Part shown: positions 2,533 through 50,784 of the stretch, piece after piece
How positions within the stretch are numbered: position 1 is the stretch's first letter
Layout of the letters: each line of letters starts with the position of its first letter
Virus record (IMG/VR): IMGVR_UViG_3300021963_000021
Coordinates: 299,944-363,943 of that record
Direction: 5' to 3' (one strand)
From: a virus
DNA: 64,000 bases
Translations under genes and position numbers: made by a program
The notes under the pieces: model-generated
What the model was told of the DNA's origin: nothing
Seen by the model: the letters and a program-made list of their open reading frames with translations, nothing else
The model's database searches: none

Positions 2533-2795
2533 TGTTTATCCTGTTTTGTTAATTCAGTAGTATTCCAAATATTTCTATTATGAACAACCTTGTCTTTTAG
2601 TATTCTTATAACTTTCTCTTTCTCAGTTTCGGTCCATATAAAATGTAAACTATTTAACGGCGGTCTACCTGTTGTTTCATCGTACAAAGACTTATGTTGG
2701 TAGTATGATTTTAACCACACCCATTGTCCACTAGTGACTTTGACAGGCTTCCATGCAAATAGTTTACTTTCCATAATTTCCAGAAGCCAGAACAA
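2529..2795 (-). CDS. hypothetical protein
   Basis: 88-aa ORF overlapping nrdB and aldolase-like ORF ends (operonic). Confidence 0.3.
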   Translation of the reverse strand: MFWLLEIMESKLFAWKPVKVTSGQWVWLKSYYQHKSLYDETTGRPPLNSLHFIWTETEKEKVIRILKDKVVHNRNIWNTTELTKQDKQ

Positions 2796-3426
2796 TCTTA
2801 CAAATGTGTTCTAATCTTTCAATATGTTCGTACGCTCGCCACGGAGTCGTATCGATAGCAACTACACCGTGTCCTTTAATGCCTACAATATCGTAGGCAA
2901 CATTACCGTCTCTATCTAGTTGAAGATTCGTGTGGCACTGATCCGCAAGCTCTTGACTAATAGGCGGAACATCTCCGACATTGGGTGCTACTCGAGTATA
3001 ACGGTTAAGCTCCGGAAAAGCATCACTGATAGTACTAAGGTCGATACCGGCATGCATAGCCGCAATACTGTAAGTAGGATGTACATGTACAACTACTCTT
3101 ACCTCGTCCTTATGCTGACCCATTTCTTTTTGTAGACCAAAATGTAATGGTATCTCTCCGCTAGGTACTAGATTTTTACTGATGTCAGTATAGGGTACAT
3201 CTTCCCAAGAGTAGTTGAATGCCGCTGTTCCATATCCACTATGGATGCTTCTGTGTATAGCTATCTTCTTAAATTGGTCAGGTTGTAGTGTTTGCTTACG
3301 CACACCGCTTGGAGTAATGTAGAAGTGATCACGATCATGATGACGGATGCTGACGTTGCCATCACGACTGGTAATCCAATTACGCTTATAAGCGTCTACC
3401 ATAATATCACATATCGTTTCTAACAT
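2764..3426 (-). CDS. class II aldolase/adducin-family protein (fuculose-phosphate aldolase / ribulose-5-P epimerase-like)
   Basis: 220 aa. Contains GNVSIR (substrate phosphate-binding motif) and VHVHPTYSIAAMHAG (metal-binding His pair), both typical of the class II aldolase/adducin fold. Confidence 0.55.
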   Translation of the reverse strand: MLETICDIMVDAYKRNWITSRDGNVSIRHHDRDHFYITPSGVRKQTLQPDQFKKIAIHRSIHSGYGTAAFNYSWEDVPYTDISKNLVPSGEIPLHFGLQKEMGQHKDEVRVVVHVHPTYSIAAMHAGIDLSTISDAFPELNRYTRVAPNVGDVPPISQELADQCHTNLQLDRDGNVAYDIVGIKGHGVVAIDTTPWRAYEHIERLEHICKIVLASGNYGK

Positions 3427-3958
3427 TTACATAATCCCAGTTTATTATTTTCCATTGATTTTCTAAATACTTTTTCTTGTCGTGTTGATAATCCAACGCC
3501 CAAGCATGTTCCCACCAATCAACTAATACTACTATATCTTTTTTTATTTCGTGATTCTTTATAGTTTTAATTTCGCCAGACTTAGAAAGATATACCCACC
3601 CACTACCTTGTATGCTCATGGCCACTTTGGTAAATTCTTCTTTAAACTTATCAAAGGATTTAAATTTTTCTTCAATAAGTTCTAGGGTCTTGCCGGATGG
3701 CTTATTGCTAGATTTTGGTGCTTGATATTGTTGGAACAGTATGTTATGTAAGAACACGCCAGCTTCATTGAAGTCAGGGTCACCTTCGCCTTTGTTGTAT
3801 CTGTCAGCATAGGTATGAGCTAGTTTACCATAGTGATAATCGATAGTATCCTCTGATATCGACGGATCTAGATCATCCTTGTCGTATGGCAATGCTTTGA
3901 TTTCTAATTTCTCAGCTTTGCCCTCTAACAGAAAATTTCGTATAAAGTTATAGGTCAT
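3407..3958 (-). CDS. Fe/Mn-family superoxide dismutase-like protein
   Basis: 183 aa. C-terminal DWWEHAWALDYQ matches the D-x-W-E-H-A-Y-Y metal-ligand signature. N-terminal LPYDKDDLDP..HYGKLAHTY matches the N-terminal helical His region. Shorter and more divergent than cellular SodA/B. Confidence 0.6.
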   Translation of the reverse strand: MTYNFIRNFLLEGKAEKLEIKALPYDKDDLDPSISEDTIDYHYGKLAHTYADRYNKGEGDPDFNEAGVFLHNILFQQYQAPKSSNKPSGKTLELIEEKFKSFDKFKEEFTKVAMSIQGSGWVYLSKSGEIKTIKNHEIKKDIVVLVDWWEHAWALDYQHDKKKYLENQWKIINWDYVNVRNDM

Positions 3959-6291
3959 AACTTACACGCCTCGCAATCATCTTCTAGTTCTTCGTTATGA
4001 TACCCGTTGACTTCTTTTTCTACATAAGCAGGTTCAGCATCCTGTGCCTTAGATCCATGCTTGTTGATCAAGCTGTAATAGAATGTCTTCAATCCCCACA
4101 TCTGTGCTTGCATTAAATTCTTAGCAATCAATGTGGTAGGAACTTTTCTGTCAGCGAACCAAGCAGGATTGTAGAATGTGTTTGTAGAAATACTTTGGTC
4201 AACATATGCTGCCAATACTGCGGCAGTTTTTAGATATCCAACGCAGTCTTTCTGTTCCCACATTAATTGATACTTGTTCTTTAACTTGTGATAGTCTGGT
4301 ACTACCTGTGTAAATGATCCTGCCTTTGATTCCTTAGTAGAAATCAAACTCATCGGAAGTTCAATACCATTGGTAGAATTAATAACCACACTACTGCTTT
4401 CCACAGGAGCAATAGCCATAAGTGTCGCATTTCTAACACCATACTGTTTCATGTCCTTTCTTAGAGGTTCCCAATCTAGTTCAGGTTTGAAGTTAGTAAG
4501 CTCATTAACGCCTTTGGCACGTAGTTCCCAAGGAAACTTGCCTTGACCGTATCGTGTCTTATCGCTGTCTTTACATGGGCCACGTTCTTTGGCCAATTCA
4601 ACTGTAGCTTCAGTGAGATAGAACGCTTGGTGTTCCATCCAAGATTTAACATCTTGTAGAGCATCCTTGTCACCGTAACGTAGTCCACGTTTGGCATGCC
4701 AGTAGGCTAAGTTTGTAACACCAATGCCCAGTGGTTGTATCTCATCGTTAGACAGTTTGCTCTGTATCGACAGGAAGTCTTGATAGTCTAGAATATTACA
4801 TAGACTACGCTGTAATATGCGACATGCTCTACGCATGTCTTCTGGGTTACGGAACGCACCCCAGTTAATGGATCCCAGTGTACATAACGCTATGCGCCCC
4901 TCCGCGTCGTCTAATCTCTTAAATGGACGGGTTGGTAATAAGATCTCACAGCACAAGTTACTTTGATAGATGGTATGATACTCAGGATCGAAAGGACCTT
5001 GATTCATGACATTATCAATAAACACCAAATAGATGCGACCTGTGTCTGTACGTTCCTTCAAGATGCCGCTTTTGAATACTTCTTCAGCTGACATTGTTTT
5101 CTTGCGTAGGTCTTTACGCTTTTCATACTCTGTGTATAGTTTTTCAAAACGTTCTGTATTTTGATAAAACGCTTCATATAGTTCTGGTACTTCGTTAGGG
5201 TCGAAGAATGTTATGTTTTCTTTATTCCTGAATCGTCTCCAGAAAAATGCTGACAAAACAACTCCGTAATCCATATGTCGTACCCGTGTTTCGTCTGTGC
5301 CTTGATTATTCTTAAGAACAATAAGATCATCAAACTGATAATGCCAAATGGGATAAAACACAGTAGCACTAGCATTACGGATTCCTCCCTGTGAGCACGA
5401 ACGCAGATCACCAAACCATTTTTTAAGGAACGGAATCATGCCAGTGTGCATAATTTCACCACCTCTGATGGGGCTACCCAATGGACGTAGTCTGCCAATC
5501 TCCAAACCAATGCCAGCACGTTTGCTGGCATACTTGGCCATCATTTCGCCACTAGCAAAAATGGAGTCAAGATCATCATCACTACGAATGAGTACACAGC
5601 TACTGAACTGCTTAGTGGGAGTCCCAAGGCCAGCAAGAACAGGAGTAGCGAGAGTAAATAGACCGTCTGAAGCCGCATTGTAGTATTCCTTGATAAATTT
5701 CATTCGAGCACTGTTAGGCTCTTCTTTGTGAAACACTGTAGCCGCAGCTACCATATAACGAACCTGTGGTGTTTCGTAAATTTCTTTAGTAGCACGATTG
5801 CGTACTAGATATTTTTCTATTAGTTGTTCAATGCTGGCATAACCGTACTGCTCATCTTTTTCGTGATCGAGCATGGCATCCATTTTATCCCAATCGTCTT
5901 CGCTGTACCAAACAAGAAGTTCAGGAGTATAAAGACCTACTTCAATATTCTTTTTAATGATGTCGTAGAGGCGCGGAGGGGTATAGGTTCCATATACATC
6001 TTTTCTCAGCATACTAAGACGTTGCTTACCTGCTACATATTGGTAATTGGTATGTCCTACACCCGGATTAGATTCTACATCAATTAGGTCTACTATGGCT
6101 CTTAATGTTAGAGAATCAATTGCTTGTGTTGTGATGCCATCATAAAAATGCGGACTTGCTTTGATTTCTATCATTGACTGACTGACGTCAGCTATACCTT
6201 TACATACTTTTGCTACCTGCGCTTGCCACTTTTCGATCATTAGTGGTTCTTTTGTTCCATCTCTTTTAATTACTGTGATAATGTCGTTCAT
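3955..6291 (-). CDS. nrdA: ribonucleotide reductase class Ia large subunit
   Basis: 778 aa. Catalytic NLCCEI motif (QSNLCCEILLP), ATP-cone-like N-terminus and C-terminal CxxC (CEACKL) redox pair. Confidence 0.9.
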   Translation of the reverse strand: MNDIITVIKRDGTKEPLMIEKWQAQVAKVCKGIADVSQSMIEIKASPHFYDGITTQAIDSLTLRAIVDLIDVESNPGVGHTNYQYVAGKQRLSMLRKDVYGTYTPPRLYDIIKKNIEVGLYTPELLVWYSEDDWDKMDAMLDHEKDEQYGYASIEQLIEKYLVRNRATKEIYETPQVRYMVAAATVFHKEEPNSARMKFIKEYYNAASDGLFTLATPVLAGLGTPTKQFSSCVLIRSDDDLDSIFASGEMMAKYASKRAGIGLEIGRLRPLGSPIRGGEIMHTGMIPFLKKWFGDLRSCSQGGIRNASATVFYPIWHYQFDDLIVLKNNQGTDETRVRHMDYGVVLSAFFWRRFRNKENITFFDPNEVPELYEAFYQNTERFEKLYTEYEKRKDLRKKTMSAEEVFKSGILKERTDTGRIYLVFIDNVMNQGPFDPEYHTIYQSNLCCEILLPTRPFKRLDDAEGRIALCTLGSINWGAFRNPEDMRRACRILQRSLCNILDYQDFLSIQSKLSNDEIQPLGIGVTNLAYWHAKRGLRYGDKDALQDVKSWMEHQAFYLTEATVELAKERGPCKDSDKTRYGQGKFPWELRAKGVNELTNFKPELDWEPLRKDMKQYGVRNATLMAIAPVESSSVVINSTNGIELPMSLISTKESKAGSFTQVVPDYHKLKNKYQLMWEQKDCVGYLKTAAVLAAYVDQSISTNTFYNPAWFADRKVPTTLIAKNLMQAQMWGLKTFYYSLINKHGSKAQDAEPAYVEKEVNGYHNEELEDDCEACKL

Positions 6292-39305: not shown

Positions 39306-39592
39306 TGCTACAACTAAGATTTGAACTAAAGAATCCTTGGTCTAAAGATCGTTTTAAGAATCTAGGCTGTGTCAGCGGACGCATTTCCAAGAATAAAGCG
39401 TGGGAATTAGAACACACATTCTATGATGGTCTCATAGCAGACTGTGAGTTTAAGTTCACGACCAAAGAAGATCATGCTGGTCTAAACATTATGATAGGTG
39501 TTCTAGGCTACGCTGTTCATTTCAGCATCTACGATACTAGACACTGGGACTACGAAAACAACTGTTGGCAAGTTTATGAAGATTTGCGCTAG
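39305..39592 (+). CDS. hypothetical protein
   Basis: 95 aa. Its TAG stop lies within the first 7 nt of the downstream tRNA. Confidence 0.3.
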   Translation: MLQLRFELKNPWSKDRFKNLGCVSGRISKNKAWELEHTFYDGLIADCEFKFTTKEDHAGLNIMIGVLGYAVHFSIYDTRHWDYENNCWQVYEDLR

Positions 39593-39660
39593 AAGCCTAA
39601 TGGTCAGGCACGGGTCTCTAAAGCCCAGGATAGCAGGTTCGATTCCTGTCTAGCGCACCA
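39586..39660 (+). tRNA. tRNA with anticodon CUA (amber-suppressor-like, class I, amino-acid identity unknown)
   Basis: 75 nt: GCGCTAG-AA-GCCT-AATGGTC-AGGC-A-CGGGT-CTCTAAA-GCCCA-GGATA-GCAGG-TTCGATT-CCTGT-CTAGCGC-A-CCA. Perfect 7-bp acceptor stem, 4-bp D stem, T-loop TTCGATT and encoded CCA. The anticodon stem has 3 G-C pairs, a U-G wobble and one C-A mismatch. The loop is C-U-CUA-A-A (U33, A37). Confidence 0.6.
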
Positions 39661-43504: not shown

Positions 43505-43527
43505 AAAAAGCCCCTTCCGGGGCTTTG
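43505..43527 (-). terminator. rho-independent terminator (minus strand)
   Basis: AGCCCC-TTCC-GGGGCT flanked by A/T runs, directly after the TerC-family gene stop. Confidence 0.6.
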
Positions 43528-43528
43528 A

Positions 43529-44203
43529 TTAATTTTTCTTTCTTATCTCTGTTCGGTAATACTGTTTAGCAGTAAGAATAACAGCACCAACAAATGGTAA
43601 TATCTTTTCTACAAAATCATGTAGTGGGTCATTCCATTTGTCAATAAAAGGTTCGTGTACTATCATATTGCCTGCCACATAGTATAAAACAAAAGCACCA
43701 ATGTAAATTGTGCTAGGATATTTATCAAGTATGTTAGCGACTAACGTGCTACCAAACAAGATGATAGGTACACTAATTAGTAGTCCAGCGATGATTAAAA
43801 TCCAATTACCACTTGCGGCACCTGCGATTGCTAGTGCGTTATCTAAGCCCATGACAGCATCTGCCATTACGATTGTGCCCATTGCTCCCCAGAATGTTGT
43901 AGCAGCTCTGACATTACTATGATCGTTGTTGTTAGAAGTTAACTTCCAAGCGATGTAGATCAACGCAAGTCCGCCGACTAGTCTTAGCCCAGGAATCATT
44001 AGCAAATATGTAAGAGCCGCAACACAGGCAAAGCGAACACCTACAGCACCAAAGGTACCCCAAAGCATAGCTCGTTTACGTAGGGGTTCTGGTAGTTGTT
44101 TAGACGCCATTGCTATAACCAGTGCGTTTTCGCCTCCTAGTACAACGTCTATTAAGATGATGGCTATTAAAGCCCATAAGAATTGAAGTGAGAGAATTTC
44201 CAT
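43529..44203 (-). CDS. TerC-family integral membrane protein (YjbE/YkoY/Alx-like)
   Basis: 224 aa with ~7 TM helices. Duplicated motif GGENALVIA...(M)GLDNALAIAGA is characteristic of the TerC family. Confidence 0.7.
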   Translation of the reverse strand: MEILSLQFLWALIAIILIDVVLGGENALVIAMASKQLPEPLRKRAMLWGTFGAVGVRFACVAALTYLLMIPGLRLVGGLALIYIAWKLTSNNNDHSNVRAATTFWGAMGTIVMADAVMGLDNALAIAGAASGNWILIIAGLLISVPIILFGSTLVANILDKYPSTIYIGAFVLYYVAGNMIVHEPFIDKWNDPLHDFVEKILPFVGAVILTAKQYYRTEIRKKN

Positions 44204-44306
44204 AAGTTTCCTTTAAATTTATGGTCTCGTCTCTTTGTCTACACACCGGGCTTGCGCCGTGATGACGATGTATAAAACCTTTTCAGGTTGACTACTCCCC
44301 AGGAAA
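44204..44306 (-). promoter_or_regulatory. structured 5' leader of TerC-family gene; candidate yybP-ykoY (Mn2+) riboswitch-like element
   Basis: Minus-strand RNA: UUUCCU-GGGGAGUAG-UCAACCUGAAAAGGUU...CACGGCGCAAGCCCGGUG...GACAAAGAGACGAGACCAUAAAUUUAAAGGAAACUU-AUG. It has the GGGGAGUAG and GAGAC/ACCAUA blocks, a closing helix UUUCCU/AGGAAA, and GAAA- and GCAA-capped hairpins. Confidence 0.4.
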
Positions 44307-44316
44307 TATTTATAAT
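44288..44316 (+). promoter_or_regulatory. sigma70-like promoter (TTGACT-17-TATAAT)
   Basis: TTGACTactccccaggaaatattTATAAT. Divergent from the TerC late box. Confidence 0.55.
44307..44314 (-). promoter_or_regulatory. T4-type late promoter box TATAAATA (minus strand) upstream of TerC leader
   Basis: Plus strand reads tatttata. Overlaps the divergent plus-strand -10. Confidence 0.45.
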
Positions 44317-44385: not shown

Positions 44386-44928
44386 GTGTTTCACTTTAAC
44401 AAGAAGCACTTAGAAGATCAGACCATTCCCATGTGGGTCTTAAAATTCCATGGCGAAACCCTGTATGTAAATCACGTTGATTGTACTGTTGCTTGGTCAA
44501 CAAAAGAAACGCCTGATAACACACATACCAAAGGCAGCATCAAAGTCAAAGACGTACTGCTACGTATCAATGATGCCAACGAAGCCCAAATATCTCAATT
44601 AACACTGGTAGACAAGTTTAGGTTACGAAACCAAAAGCTGGGTATCACACGAGTGATGTTTAGCCCTAATGTCGCATTCCATAAAGCTCTACAGAACAAC
44701 GAGTTCAAGCATGGTCCGTTGAAACACATCCGTGGTGCTTGTGCCAGTTCGTTCGTGATCACTGATCTCACTGTGAAATCAGAAGTCACTATGGCCCTGT
44801 TAAAGTACAGCAACCAATTTAGGATTGTACAGCCCAACGAAACTTATTATCAGCAGTATGACAATGTCAAGGGCGAGAACCTACATGTGGATTATGGACA
44901 TCCTAGCACACCTTTTGAGTACAGTTAA
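44386..44928 (+). CDS. hypothetical protein
   Basis: 180 aa from a GTG start. An upstream in-frame ATG at 44350, with a strong AAGGAG RBS, is separated from this ORF by a single TAG codon (M-S-K-TAG-I-E-Y...). Confidence 0.35.
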   Translation: MFHFNKKHLEDQTIPMWVLKFHGETLYVNHVDCTVAWSTKETPDNTHTKGSIKVKDVLLRINDANEAQISQLTLVDKFRLRNQKLGITRVMFSPNVAFHKALQNNEFKHGPLKHIRGACASSFVITDLTVKSEVTMALLKYSNQFRIVQPNETYYQQYDNVKGENLHVDYGHPSTPFEYS

Positions 44929-50620: not shown

Positions 50621-50697
50621 GCCCCTATAGCTCAATAGGTAAGAGCACCCGACTCATAATCGGTAGGTTCCTGGTTCAAATCCAGGTGGGGGCACCA
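50621..50697 (+). tRNA. tRNA-Ile2-like (anticodon CAU, lysidine-type)
   Basis: 77 nt with encoded CCA. The anticodon arm CCCGA-CUCAUAA-UCGGU and the overall sequence closely resemble E. coli ileX tRNA-Ile(LAU); they are unlike initiator or elongator Met tRNAs. Lies immediately downstream of the TilS-like gene. Confidence 0.7.
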
Positions 50698-50700
50698 AAT

Positions 50701-50784
50701 GCCCGCGTGGTGGAAGTGGTAGACACAAGAGACTTAAAATCTCTCGCTTATGGCGTGCCGGTTCGAGTCCGGCCGCGGGCACCA
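50701..50784 (+). tRNA. tRNA-Leu (anticodon UAA)
   Basis: 84 nt with long variable arm, anticodon loop CUUAAAA and encoded CCA. Near-identical architecture to bacterial tRNA-Leu(UAA). Confidence 0.85.

What the first reader, a model, noticed from the sequence alone, without database searches (positions are those of the whole stretch)
43529..44316. Candidate Mn2+ (yybP-ykoY-type) riboswitch in the leader of a late-promoter-driven, phage-encoded TerC-family gene
The minus-strand leader of the TerC/YkoY-like membrane protein gene (43529..44203) carries GGGGAGUAG and GAGAC...ACCAUA blocks. I recognise these as the most conserved loop sequences of the yybP-ykoY manganese riboswitch. A closing helix UUUCCU/AGGAAA brackets them, and GAAA- and GCAA-capped hairpins lie between. 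TerC/YkoY/Alx/MntP genes are the canonical targets of that riboswitch. A T4-type TATAAATA box sits just upstream, and the gene is insulated by terminators on both sides. The same genome window also carries an Fe/Mn superoxide dismutase, which suggests a phage-borne metal-homeostasis module. Riboswitches are very rarely reported in virulent phage genomes.
Basis: partly seen in the sequence, partly recalled or inferred. Interest (0 to 1): 0.8.

Follow-up and report, generated by a model that had tools for sequence, protein, structure and literature searches.

The report
Compact phage manganese riboswitch controlling TerC
The leader of this phage's TerC membrane-protein gene is a stripped-down relative of the bacterial manganese-sensing riboswitch; the standard RNA database model misses it, yet it is conserved in dozens of uncultured large phages, which suggests these viruses tune a metal-handling gene to the manganese level of the infected cell.

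Summary
Several structural details do not, and its proposed refutation test cannot discriminate. Rfam RF00080 gives no hit on the leader even at E<=10, but it also misses the validated E. coli alx Mn2+ aptamer, while finding mntP at 41.6 bits. Comparative evidence decides the case. I analysed 39 distinct homologous leaders from viral and metagenome contigs, and 30 further loci were detected by a model built here. All lie upstream of TerC genes of the R_switched_YjbE or R_switched_Alx subfamilies. The helices P1.2, P2, P3.1 and P3.2 covary strongly: 97.5% of cells are paired and 19 of 27 pairs change on both sides. L1 (GGGGAGUA/RAGACC) and an alx-type L3 (UCAnnAC) stay fixed. A model built only from phage aptamers finds the E. 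coli mntP, E. coli alx and a Paenibacillus aptamer at their correct positions. The window's version (44222-44300, minus strand) lacks P4 and is a three-way junction. A TATAAATA box sits 6 nt upstream, so the transcript probably begins at the aptamer. The CC of P1.1 can instead pair with the start codon (CCAUAA/UUAUGG), and this alternative pairing covaries in relatives. That suggests a Mn2+-ON translational switch. Ligand response is untested.

The parts
44307..44314 (-). TATAAATA box, a T4-late-type promoter-like element, 6 nt upstream of the first G of the aptamer
   Evidence: Exact match. All 4 TATAAATA and 18 of 31 TAAATA boxes in the window are intergenic. A TAAATA box ends 4-8 nt upstream of the first G in 38 of 39 homologous elements, against a background probability of 0.0023.
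44222..44300 (-). Mn2+-riboswitch-type aptamer (yybP-ykoY family), P4-less three-way-junction form, 79 nt
   Evidence: R1 scores 92 bits, E 7.5e-23, and it is the only hit in the window. Structure supported by covariation.
44293..44300 (-). P1.1 5' strand (GG) plus L1 5' strand (GGAGUA); invariant
   Evidence: Columns 1-8 are invariant in both alignments, including the set collected by protein similarity alone. Same block as in E. coli mntP and alx.
44290..44292 (-). P1.2 5' strand (GUC), pairs with 44229-44231
   Evidence: All three pairs covary: GC/AU, UA/CG, CG/UA/UG.
44277..44288 (-). P2 hairpin ACCU-GAAA-AGGU
   Evidence: All four pairs covary in the unbiased set.
44266..44276 (-). P3.1 5' strand (UUUAUACAUCG), pairs with 44238-44248
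   Evidence: 8 of 11 pairs show changes on both sides. The inner U.G, C-G and G-C pairs are invariant.
44259..44265 (-). L3 loop UCAUCAC (alx-type, U first; the A at position 3 is invariant)
   Evidence: The alx-like consensus UCAUUAC and the Mn-coordinating conserved A are described in PMC12153347.
44249..44258 (-). P3.2 hairpin GGC-GCAA-GCC
   Evidence: All 3 pairs covary in the 26-sequence set and 2 of 3 in the protein-collected set.
44238..44248 (-). P3.1 3' strand (CGGUGUGUAGA)
44232..44237 (-). Single-stranded linker CAAAGA in place of P4. With the preceding base it matches the conserved ACNAAG of P4-less forms.
   Evidence: Alignment A3. Relatives with P4 carry a 4-bp covarying helix here.
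44229..44231 (-). P1.2 3' strand (GAC)
44223..44228 (-). L1 3' strand (GAGA) plus P1.1 3' strand (CC)
   Evidence: RAGACC is invariant. Same block as in mntP and alx.
44200..44224 (-). Alternative hairpin CCAUAA-[13-nt loop holding the SD]-UUAUGG. It sequesters the start codon and uses the CC of P1.1.
   Evidence: Contiguous stem 5.73 bp against 4.42 bp cross-paired, 0 of 20000 permutations. In the unbiased set 6.21 against 4.98 bp, 5 of 20000. Energetics.
44209..44213 (-). Shine-Dalgarno-like AAGGA, in the loop of the alternative hairpin
   Evidence: Read from the sequence.
43529..44203 (-). TerC-family gene, YjbE subfamily, 224 aa
   Evidence: Pfam PF03741 E 3.8e-43. TIGR03717 R_switched_YjbE 203 bits against a cutoff of 134.8.
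43507..43526 (-). Intrinsic-terminator-like hairpin followed by a T run, directly after the TerC stop codon

Best explanation
The 79-nt leader at 44222-44300 (minus strand) is a genuine but divergent member of the yybP-ykoY Mn2+ riboswitch family, carried by an uncultured large myovirus. I put the identity at about 0.85 and the specific switching mechanism at about 0.55.

ARCHITECTURE. It keeps the family's metal-binding core. That core is L1 (GGGGAGUA on the 5' side, GAGACC on the 3' side) facing an alx-type L3 (UCAUCAC), held by P1.2/P2 on one leg and P3.1/P3.2 on the other. It has lost P4, so it forms a three-way junction. Sister phages keep a 4-bp mini-P4 and form four-way junctions.

PROMOTER (inferred). 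A T4-late-type TATAAATA box lies 6 nt upstream. The transcript therefore starts at or next to the first G, and P1.1 is reduced to GG/CC plus at most one or two pairs.

SWITCH (inferred). The 3' strand of P1.1 is the switch strand, as in the bacterial family. Without Mn2+, CCAUAA pairs with UUAUGG and buries the TerC start codon, with the SD in the loop. With Mn2+, L1-L3 docking holds CC against the 5'-terminal GG, the A/U-rich remainder of the hairpin falls apart, and TerC is translated. This makes it an ON switch, as in bacteria.

SHOWN: the structure by covariation, homology to validated aptamers, exclusive linkage to TerC, the promoter-box geometry, and the covarying alternative hairpin. 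INFERRED: the transcription start, Mn2+ binding, and the direction and size of the regulatory effect.
For: STRUCTURE. RNAalifold on a MAFFT alignment of 26 distinct leaders, given no prior structure, recovers P1.1, P1.2, P2, P3.1 and P3.2, and 15 of 24 pairs are compensatory. My explicit model gives 98.4% of cells paired, against 82.4% for shuffles and 23-45% for slid controls. 17 of 27 pairs change on both sides, and the covariation score is 0.484 against 0.186 (0 of 500 shuffles). On 19 leaders collected only by TerC protein similarity, the figures are 97.5% against 79.4%, 19 of 27 pairs, and 0.539 against 0.211 (0 of 500).

HOMOLOGY. Model R1, built from 16 P4-less phage aptamers, finds E. 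coli mntP (23.3 bits, E 1e-4), a Paenibacillus aptamer (16.3 bits, E 0.011) and E. coli alx (14.7 bits, E 0.03), each at the correct position. P4-bearing phage aptamers that were not used in the model score 41-47 bits. Block order and sequence match mntP and alx. The L3 matches the alx-like consensus UCAUUAC given in PMC12153347. Some relatives carry the alx configuration GGGGAGUAA with a compensating ACU/AGU change in P1.2.

CONTEXT. All analysed leaders and all further R1-positive loci with readable downstream sequence precede TerC genes, of subfamilies TIGR03717 R_switched_YjbE or TIGR03718 R_switched_Alx.

PROMOTER. A TAAATA box ends 4-8 nt upstream of the first G in 38 of 39 elements, against a background of 0.0023, and the boxes are concentrated in intergenic DNA.

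SWITCH. The CCAU.../...AUGG stem covaries. The sequestered state is favoured by 1.6 kcal/mol in the window and by a mean of 2.8 kcal/mol across 21 leaders. In the unconstrained ensemble the AUG has P(unpaired) near 0. Variants with a longer leader carry a duplicated CCAU..AUGG module that could relay the same logic. That the P1.1 3' half is the family's switch strand is stated in PMC12153347.
Against: RF00080 does not match at E<=10. This is weakened by the same failure on the validated alx aptamer.

If the start-site inference is right, P1.1 is only 2-3 bp, far shorter than in studied aptamers. Whether docking can then compete with a 6-9 bp hairpin is unknown.

The start-codon hairpin is weak (-3.4 kcal/mol on its own) and leaves the SD in its loop, so repression could be modest.

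Some members have only 3 bp of that hairpin and need a different platform: L055, L059, L063, L065 and L069 and L113 and L120.

Most of the first 26 leaders were collected with a DNA pattern that forced the three blocks to be invariant. The unbiased set is smaller.

The E-values of R1 are rough because calibration was shortened. No late sigma factor was found in the 20 window ORFs scanned against PHROGs. There are no transcript data and no ligand data.
Confidence: 0.65

Rival explanations
1. The aptamer is a real Mn2+ sensor, but the output is not start-codon sequestration. The folded and unfolded leaders might differ in mRNA stability, in Rho or RNase access, or in SD accessibility through another pairing. 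One candidate is the pyrimidine-rich P4/P1.2 3' strand UCCUUGG pairing with UUAAGGA in the subgroup that lacks the hairpin.
For: Members with only 3 bp of the CCAU/AUGG stem still keep the aptamer. The hairpin alone is weak. The MFE fold of the window transcript also pairs the L1 strands with codons 3-7. E. coli mntP is additionally subject to Rho-dependent control (PMC11647493 abstract).
Against: The CCAU/AUGG stem covaries beyond permuted controls in both sets. There is no room for a terminator in the 13-24 nt between the aptamer and the AUG. The relay variants duplicate exactly this module.
Confidence: 0.15
2. The aptamer's response is tuned differently from canonical Mn2+ sensing. It could be coupled to alkaline pH, as in E. 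coli alx whose U-first L3 it shares, or it could have shifted metal selectivity.
For: The L3 is of the alx type (UCAnnAC) rather than the family consensus ACAUACU. PMC12153347 proposes that the U at the first L3 position may contribute to pH dependence.
Against: PMC13594968 attributes the pH effect in alx to the L2 capping loop that replaces P2, whereas the phage aptamers keep a normal, covarying P2. L1 and the Mn-coordinating A of L3 are intact.
Confidence: 0.1
3. The leader is a relic riboswitch that came in with a bacterial TerC gene. It now serves only as a constitutive structured 5' end (for example for mRNA stability) and no longer senses a ligand.
For: P4 is lost and P1.1 is minimal. 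Many phage TerC genes do without any such leader.
Against: A relic would not keep L1 and the L3 core invariant while every helix accumulates compensatory changes across dozens of diverged phages and two TerC subfamilies. Nor would it keep a covarying alternative pairing with the start codon.
Confidence: 0.07
4. The resemblance to the Mn2+ riboswitch is a chance match of short motifs, as the lack of an RF00080 hit would suggest.
For: No RF00080 match at E<=10. Fold z-score of the window leader alone is only -1.14.
Against: Covariation, reciprocal detection of three bona fide aptamers, exclusive linkage to TerC, and failure of the same Rfam search on validated alx.
Confidence: 0.01

Closest known systems
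E. coli alx Mn2+ (and pH) riboswitch, the alx-like subgroup of yybP-ykoY
   Same: L1 block GGGGAGUA(A/G)...GAGACC. U-first L3 of the UCAUUAC type. A near-identical inner core AUCGUCAUnACG...CCGGU. A three-way junction. A TerC-family target gene. Translational control in which the P1.1 3' strand re-pairs with the expression platform (PMC12153347). Both are invisible to RF00080 in this tool.
   Different: alx lacks P2 (an L2 capping loop takes its place) and has a long P4 containing an intrinsic termination site, a P1.1 of about 6 bp, and a multi-helix platform (P5/P6) over about 100 nt. The window's RNA keeps a covarying P2, lacks P4, has a 2-3 bp P1.1 that probably starts at the transcript's 5' end, and has a single 25-nt platform hairpin. 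The alx-like type was reported as exclusive to Enterobacteriales. These elements are in uncultured phages whose nearest cultured relatives infect Synechococcus.
Canonical four-way-junction yybP-ykoY aptamers (E. coli mntP, L. lactis, X. oryzae; Rfam RF00080)
   Same: Same order of elements P1.1-L1-P1.2-P2-P3.1-L3-P3.2-(P4). Same L1. A conserved A in L3. ON-switch logic upstream of Mn-homeostasis genes. R1 aligns full-length to mntP at 23.3 bits. Phage relatives with a mini-P4 are four-way junctions.
   Different: The L3 is UCAnnAC rather than ACAUACU. P4 is absent in the window or only 4 bp in relatives. P1.1 is minimal. There is no RF00080 score. The whole riboswitch including the platform is about 100 nt.
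Phage-borne riboswitches reported so far (glutamine riboswitches in Melnitz-like and pelagimyophages, and a cyanophage psbA-associated element)
   Same: A ligand-sensing RNA carried by large T4-like or other marine and freshwater myoviruses. PMC9004378 describes riboswitches as 'a rare feature in phages'.
   Different: A different riboswitch class, ligand and target gene. I found no report of a phage Mn2+ riboswitch in the held literature, and six deposited TerC-carrying phages lack it.
T4-type late promoters (TATAAATA) and T4 mRNAs whose start regions are masked by hairpins (from my own knowledge, not tested here)
   Same: The same 8-mer box, in the right position to start transcription about 6 nt downstream, and a start-codon-masking hairpin as the translational control element.
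   Different: Here the hairpin is set against a ligand-binding aptamer rather than against a choice of promoter. The late transcription machinery was not identified in the window.

Membership tests
yybP-ykoY Mn2+ riboswitch (Rfam RF00080) | Score at or above the curated gathering threshold (45 bits) of the RF00080 covariance model | tested here: not met
   No hit at gathering or at E<=10 on 251 bases. Relatives are also missed. Controls: E. coli mntP 41.6 bits, validated E. coli alx no hit at E<=10, Paenibacillus 15.4 bits. The criterion therefore excludes accepted members too.
yybP-ykoY Mn2+ riboswitch (Rfam RF00080) | Conserved L1: GGGGAGUAG on the 5' side and RAGACC on the 3' side, flanked by P1.1 and P1.2 | tested here: met
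   Present in the window. Invariant in the protein-collected set, apart from a G9-to-A change that is compensated in P1.2. Identical blocks in mntP and alx.
yybP-ykoY Mn2+ riboswitch (Rfam RF00080) | L3: a 7-nt asymmetric loop between P3.1 and P3.2 carrying the absolutely conserved, Mn-coordinating adenosine | tested here: met
   UCAUCAC in the window. The A at position 3 is kept in all 39 leaders, including off-pattern variants such as ACAGCAC and UCAACCC. The feature is defined in PMC12153347.
yybP-ykoY Mn2+ riboswitch (Rfam RF00080) | Two helical legs (P1.1-L1-P1.2-P2 and P3.2-L3-P3.1-P4) joined at a four-way junction | tested here: inconclusive
   P1.2, P2, P3.1 and P3.2 are supported by covariation. 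P4 is absent in the window (linker CAAAGA) and in 15 further leaders of the first set, giving a three-way junction. Ten of those 26 leaders have a 4-bp covarying P4. The validated alx is also a three-way junction, but lacks P2 rather than P4.
yybP-ykoY Mn2+ riboswitch (Rfam RF00080) | Located upstream of Mn-homeostasis genes (TerC/Alx/YkoY/YjbE, MntP, etc.) | tested here: met
   TIGR03717 R_switched_YjbE in the window; TIGR03718 R_switched_Alx in other phages. All analysed leaders and all further R1-positive loci with readable downstream sequence precede TerC.
yybP-ykoY Mn2+ riboswitch (Rfam RF00080) | The P1.1 3' half pairs alternatively with the expression platform (switch helix) | tested here: inconclusive
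   CCAU.../...AUGG complementarity covaries and is energetically near-balanced with the closed aptamer. This is computational only.
yybP-ykoY Mn2+ riboswitch (Rfam RF00080) | Detectable homology to accepted members | tested here: met
   The phage-only model R1 finds mntP, a Paenibacillus aptamer and alx at their true positions with E values from 1e-4 to 0.03 in a 20.6-kb search. E-values are rough.
yybP-ykoY Mn2+ riboswitch (Rfam RF00080) | Binds Mn2+ and activates expression in response | not testable with these tools
   Requires probing, binding or reporter experiments.
alx-like subgroup of yybP-ykoY | L3 consensus UCAUUAC (U first) | tested here: met
   UCAUCAC in the window. Exact UCAUUAC in L049, L066, L067, L072, L073 and L092.
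alx-like subgroup of yybP-ykoY | P2 replaced by an L2 capping loop (three-way junction lacking P2) | tested here: not met
   P2 is present and all four of its pairs covary. The feature is defined in PMC12153347 and PMC13594968.
alx-like subgroup of yybP-ykoY | Long P4 with an internal intrinsic termination site; confined to Enterobacteriales | tested here: not met
   P4 is absent or only 4 bp. The carriers are uncultured phages nearest to Synechococcus myoviruses. The host itself was not determined.
T4-type late promoter | TATAAATA box positioned about 6 nt upstream of the transcription start, used with a phage late sigma factor (gp55-type) | tested here: inconclusive
   The box is present, its position is conserved and it is enriched upstream of genes. 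No gp55-like protein was found in the 20 window ORFs scanned against PHROGs. The start site has not been mapped.

The most novel reading that the evidence does not exclude
A lineage of uncultured large myoviruses carries what may be the smallest natural Mn2+ riboswitch: about 100 nt from transcript start to start codon. Three features set it apart. The RNA begins at L1 itself. P4 is dispensable, mirroring the loss of P2 in alx, so either leg's cap can be lost. And the two C's of P1.1 toggle between the 5'-terminal GG and the GG of AUGG. Through it the phage would read the Mn2+ status (possibly also the pH) of the infected cell and set the level of a TerC metal transporter or metalation factor late in infection. 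It would be the first metal-sensing riboswitch known to be used by a virus, and it would extend the 'alx-type' L3 beyond Enterobacteriales.
Probability: 0.5. Interest if true: 0.78.

Novelty: new variant of a known kind. Interest (0 to 1): 0.66.

Why it matters
(1) Riboswitches are rarely reported in phages. I found no report of a metal-sensing one, and the cultured TerC-carrying phages I checked lack it.

(2) The curated Rfam model misses this whole group and also the validated alx aptamer. Surveys based on RF00080 therefore undercount Mn2+ riboswitches, above all in viral data. The alignments built here could seed a better model.

(3) The architecture tests ideas about the fold. It shows a natural aptamer without P4, complementing alx without P2. 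It also shows a P1.1 reduced to about two pairs, in a system small enough for direct biophysics.

(4) Biologically, it implies that these phages need TerC activity (Mn2+ export or metalation) in proportion to intracellular Mn2+. That fits with the phage's own Fe/Mn SOD and RNR, and with the AhpC-TerC linkage seen in sister phages. It points to management of metal and oxidative stress during infection.

Tried and rejected
1. RF00080 as the arbiter: no hit in the window. I rejected it as decisive after the controls (mntP 41.6 bits; alx no hit).
2. Single-sequence folding: z = -1.14, uninformative.
3. Nucleotide search of deposited phages with 1.3 kb around the locus: no match.
5. Raw enrichment of TATAAATA: not significant. 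I replaced it with a positional analysis.
6. Fe/Mn SOD by a strict signature regex: missed it. Found by tblastn and confirmed with Pfam.
7. A covariance model from all 26 aptamers: MAFFT shifted P2 in four rows (A2), so I used the 16 P4-less sequences instead (A3).
8. The relaxed DNA pattern: about half its matches were chance, and 37 of the 67 new loci were not confirmed by R1 or, where checked, by Rfam.
9. A search for late-transcription factors in 20 window ORFs with PHROGs: none found.
10. Deposited TerC-carrying phages (Pseudomonas, Bacillus, Rhizobium, Acinetobacter, Pectobacterium): no aptamer, and intergenic gaps too short.
11. A preprint that mentions manganese riboswitch, bacteriophage and TerC together could not be opened.
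12. An off-by-one error in my first stem count was corrected.
Full report
OBSERVATION. On the minus strand, the leader of ORF 43529-44203 reads TATAAATA-uuuccu-GGGGAGUAGUCAACCUGAAAAGGUUUUAUACAUCGUCAUCACGGCGCAAGCCCGGUGUGUAGACAAAGAGACGAGACCAuaaauuuaaaggaaacuuAUGG. The ORF is a TerC-family protein (Pfam PF03741, E 3.8e-43). More precisely it belongs to NCBIfam TIGR03717 'R_switched_YjbE' (203 bits against a cutoff of 134.8). A terminator-like hairpin follows the stop codon at 43526-43507. No terminator lies upstream. Instead there is a divergent ORF, and a sigma70-like + strand promoter overlaps 44288-44316. The window is phage DNA: RNR large subunit, DNA ligase, tail-fibre and virion proteins, head protease. 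The nearest cultured relatives are Synechococcus myoviruses S-B05, S-B43 and S-T4, at only about 39% identity in a virion protein.

THE PROPOSED TEST AND WHY IT DOES NOT DECIDE. Rfam RF00080 gives no hit at the gathering score on the whole window, and none at E<=10 on 251 bases around the leader. Folding the single sequence is unremarkable (z = -1.14). The controls show otherwise. The same tool finds the E. coli mntP aptamer at 41.6 bits, which is below the gathering score of 45. It scores a Paenibacillus aptamer at only 15.4 bits. It fails completely, at E<=10 on 311 bases, on the E. coli alx aptamer. That aptamer is an experimentally characterised Mn2+ riboswitch in front of a TerC-family gene (PMC12153347). 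The curated model is therefore blind to this subtype.

COMPARATIVE EVIDENCE FOR THE APTAMER. Loci encoding TerC relatives were collected from viral contigs by protein similarity. The seven closest, five of them distinct, carry the same leader. A DNA pattern scan then gave 26 distinct leaders, counting the window. A protein-only scan of metagenomes added 13 more distinct leaders. On a structure-blind MAFFT alignment of the 26, RNAalifold predicts P1.1, P1.2, P2, P3.1 and P3.2 de novo, with 15 of 24 pairs compensatory.

My explicit model, including a 4-bp P4 found in ten of the 26 sequences, gives the following:
- 98.4% of cells paired, against 82.4% for shuffles and 23-45% for slid controls.
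- 17 of 27 pairs with changes on both sides.
- A covariation score of 0.484 against 0.186, reached by 0 of 500 shuffles.

The pattern scan forced three blocks to be invariant, so I repeated the test on the 19 leaders collected purely through the protein. The result was stronger:
- 97.5% of cells paired, against 79.4% for shuffles.
- 19 of 27 pairs with changes on both sides.
- A covariation score of 0.539 against 0.211, reached by 0 of 500 shuffles.
- Every pair of P1.2 and P2 covaries.

In this unbiased set the L1 blocks stay invariant, except for GGGGAGUAG changing to GGGGAGUAA with a compensating ACU/AGU change in P1.2. That is the exact configuration of E. coli alx. L3 varies only at positions 1 and 4-6, and always keeps the A at position 3.

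HOMOLOGY TO KNOWN Mn2+ APTAMERS. E. coli mntP reads GGGGAGUAGCC-P2-...GUGUCAACAUACU-P3.2(GCAA)-...-P4-GGCGAGACCAUAUG. E. coli alx reads AAAGGGGAGUAAC...GAUCGUCAUUACGAU...CCGGUC...GUGAGACCUUGC. The phage consensus is GGGGAGUAGCC-P2-...AUCGUCAAUACGG-P3.2-CCCGGU...GGCAAGACCAU. A covariance model (R1) built only from 16 P4-less phage aptamers gives these results:
- E. coli mntP: full-length match at 23.3 bits (E 1e-4), with P4 treated as an insertion.
- The Paenibacillus aptamer: 16.3 bits, E 0.011.
- The 5' two-thirds of E. coli alx: 14.7 bits, E 0.03.
- Each of these three is at its true position. The E-values are rough.
- P4-bearing phage aptamers that were held out of the model: 41-47 bits.
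- In the 64-kb window: exactly one element, at 44222-44300(-), 92 bits.

PLACEMENT WITHIN THE FAMILY. According to PMC12153347 and PMC13594968, the family has two helical legs: P1.1-L1-P1.2-P2 and P3.2-L3-P3.1-P4. A conserved L1 and a variable L3 form the metal site, and an absolutely conserved A in L3 coordinates Mn2+. The 3' half of P1.1 acts as the switch strand. All crystallised aptamers are four-way junctions. alx is a three-way junction that lacks P2. The alx-like L3 is UCAUUAC, against the family consensus ACAUACU. The window's L3, UCAUCAC, is of the alx type, and six relatives have exactly UCAUUAC. But the window keeps P2 and lacks P4; a conserved single-stranded ACNAAG linker takes P4's place. 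It is therefore neither a canonical four-way junction nor an alx-like member in the defined sense. It is a new structural variant in which the cap of the other leg has been lost. PMC12153347 states that alx-like riboswitches are exclusive to Enterobacteriales, and nothing links these phages to enterobacteria. The host was not determined.

GENETIC CONTEXT AND SPREAD. In every one of the 39 analysed leaders a TerC-type reading frame starts 13-24 nt after the aptamer, or follows a short extra module. The genes are either YjbE-type or Alx-type (TIGR03718 R_switched_Alx, 389 bits). A relaxed pattern scan brought in 67 new loci. R1 confirmed exactly the 30 that have both the promoter box and, where the contig allows, a TerC gene. 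It confirmed none of the other 37. Rfam found nothing in 11 of these loci, including three of the confirmed ones. Carrier contigs reach 343 kb. Many other phage TerC genes lack the RNA. So do six deposited TerC-carrying phages from five host genera, whose upstream gaps are only 3-78 nt. I found no published report of a phage Mn2+ riboswitch in the held library. PMC9004378 calls riboswitches 'a rare feature in phages' and lists glutamine-type cases.

PROMOTER. Four TATAAATA boxes in 64 kb is not more than chance. Their placement is not random, however. All four, and 18 of 31 TAAATA boxes, fall in the 7.5% of the window that is intergenic, and 17 of those 18 lie within 150 nt upstream of a same-strand gene. 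Across the family, a TAAATA box ends 4-8 nt (mostly 5-6) before the first G in 38 of 39 elements, against a background of 0.0023. The one exception is a locus truncated 6 nt upstream. In T4 the late box occupies -13 to -6; this is from my own knowledge and was not tested here. By that analogy the transcript would begin at or next to the first G of GGGGAGUAG. That leaves a P1.1 of GG/CC plus at most one or two pairs. That helix is not conserved in any case (3.92 against 3.80 +/- 0.10 bp; 663 of 5000 permutations). No late sigma factor was found in the 20 window ORFs scanned against PHROGs, so 'late' remains an inference.

EXPRESSION PLATFORM (INFERRED). The CC of P1.1 and the bases after it are complementary to the start codon region. 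Examples are CCAUAA/UUAUGG in the window, CCAUUUUA/UAAAAUGG, CCAUAAUA/UAUUAUGG and CCAUUUUAA/UUAAAAUGG in relatives. The SD lies in the loop. Three lines of evidence support this pairing:
- Native pairs form longer stems than cross-paired ones: 5.73 against 4.42 bp (0 of 20000 permutations), and 6.21 against 4.98 bp in the unbiased set (5 of 20000).
- Column-wise counts agree: 77% of cells paired, against 70% for shuffles and 29-44% for slid controls.
- Nearest-neighbour energies put 'P1.1 open plus AUG hairpin' 1.6 kcal/mol below 'aptamer closed' in the window, and 2.8 kcal/mol below on average in 21 leaders. In the free ensemble the AUG is essentially always paired.

This is the family's own logic, with the P1.1 3' strand as the switch, and it predicts a Mn2+-ON translational switch. 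Variants with 78-107 nt before TerC carry a second CCAU...AUGG module. Its 5' arm is complementary to the first AUGG segment, so it could relay the same decision. Their short ORFs are not conserved.

There are weak points. Seven leaders have only 3 bp of this stem: L055, L059, L063, L065 and L069 and L113 and L120. These must use another pairing; UCCUUGG with UUAAGGA is a candidate in some of them. The hairpin is weak on its own (-3.4 kcal/mol). Whether a 2-bp P1.1 can win the competition is unknown.

VERDICT. The leader is a divergent member of the Mn2+ riboswitch family in a phage, upstream of a TerC gene and behind a T4-late-type box. It differs from every described form in combining an alx-type L3, a retained P2, a lost or minimal P4, a minimal P1.1 at the probable 5' end of the transcript, and a one-hairpin start-codon platform. 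I rate it a new variant of a known kind. My confidence is about 0.85 that it is a true family member, and about 0.55 that it works as the ON switch described. Mn2+ binding and regulation remain to be shown experimentally.

Noticed in passing
window 39586-39660 (+): A tRNA with anticodon CUA, the amber-suppressor type (ARAGORN labels it tRNA-Pyl; Rfam tRNA 57 bits). This could indicate amber read-through or stop-codon reassignment in this phage or its host.
   Followed up: no
window 50621-50784 (+), and window-wide composition: tRNA-Met(CAU) and tRNA-Leu(UAA) sit in tandem. G+C rises from about 0.42 to about 0.50 beyond roughly 46 kb, which suggests two compositional domains in the phage genome.
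   Followed up: no
L043 6563-6672 (-): The 3' part of a betaproteobacterial-type tmRNA (52.7 bits, cut off by the locus end). It lies on the 134.8-kb IMG/VR contig whose TerC is the closest relative found (94% identity). It may be a host clue.
   Followed up: no
window 2764-6291 (-): An Fe/Mn superoxide dismutase (3407-3958) overlaps the end of the RNR large subunit (3955-6291) and is followed by a class II aldolase-like gene (2764-3426). Together they look like a redox/metal-enzyme cluster.
   Followed up: partly
L017, L027, L034, L036, L040, L042, L047, L048 (just upstream of position 3001); L072 12468-13333: In many other viral contigs the YjbE-type TerC has no riboswitch and sits directly after an AhpC-type peroxiredoxin gene. 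L072 has AhpC and an AhpD-like gene next to a riboswitched TerC. This links phage TerC to peroxide stress genes.
   Followed up: partly
L072 11628-11740; L164 6691-6770; also L181, L200, L217, L227, L229: Longer leaders carry a duplicated CCAU...AUGG module. The first AUGG segment can pair either with the aptamer's CCAU strand or with a second CCAU strand that otherwise masks the TerC start. This looks like a relay platform. The associated 17-42-codon ORFs are not conserved.
   Followed up: partly
L057 4278-4406 (-): A 42-codon ORF starts at the riboswitch-controlled AUGG and overlaps the start of an Alx-type TerC gene. This may be translational coupling, or an assembly or frameshift artefact.
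   Followed up: no
window 44185-44298 (-): In the MFE fold of the window transcript, both L1 strands (GGAGU and GAGACGAGA) pair with codons 3-7 of TerC (AAAUUCUCUCACUUC). That would be an additional OFF-state pairing. The CUCUC stretch encodes a conserved Leu-Ser, so RNA and coding constraints cannot be separated.
   Followed up: no
window 44288-44316 (+): A near-consensus sigma70-type promoter (TTGACT-17-TATAAT, 11 of 12 matches) on the opposite strand overlaps the TATAAATA box and the aptamer's 5' end. It points toward the divergent ORF 44386-44928, so there may be an early/late divergent promoter pair.
   Followed up: no
Rfam RF00080 as used: The Rfam 15 RF00080 model has 177 positions, and its consensus leaves the GGGGAGUAG block unpaired and ends after P4. 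It scores E. coli mntP below its own gathering threshold and misses E. coli alx entirely, so RF00080-based surveys will undercount this family.
   Followed up: partly
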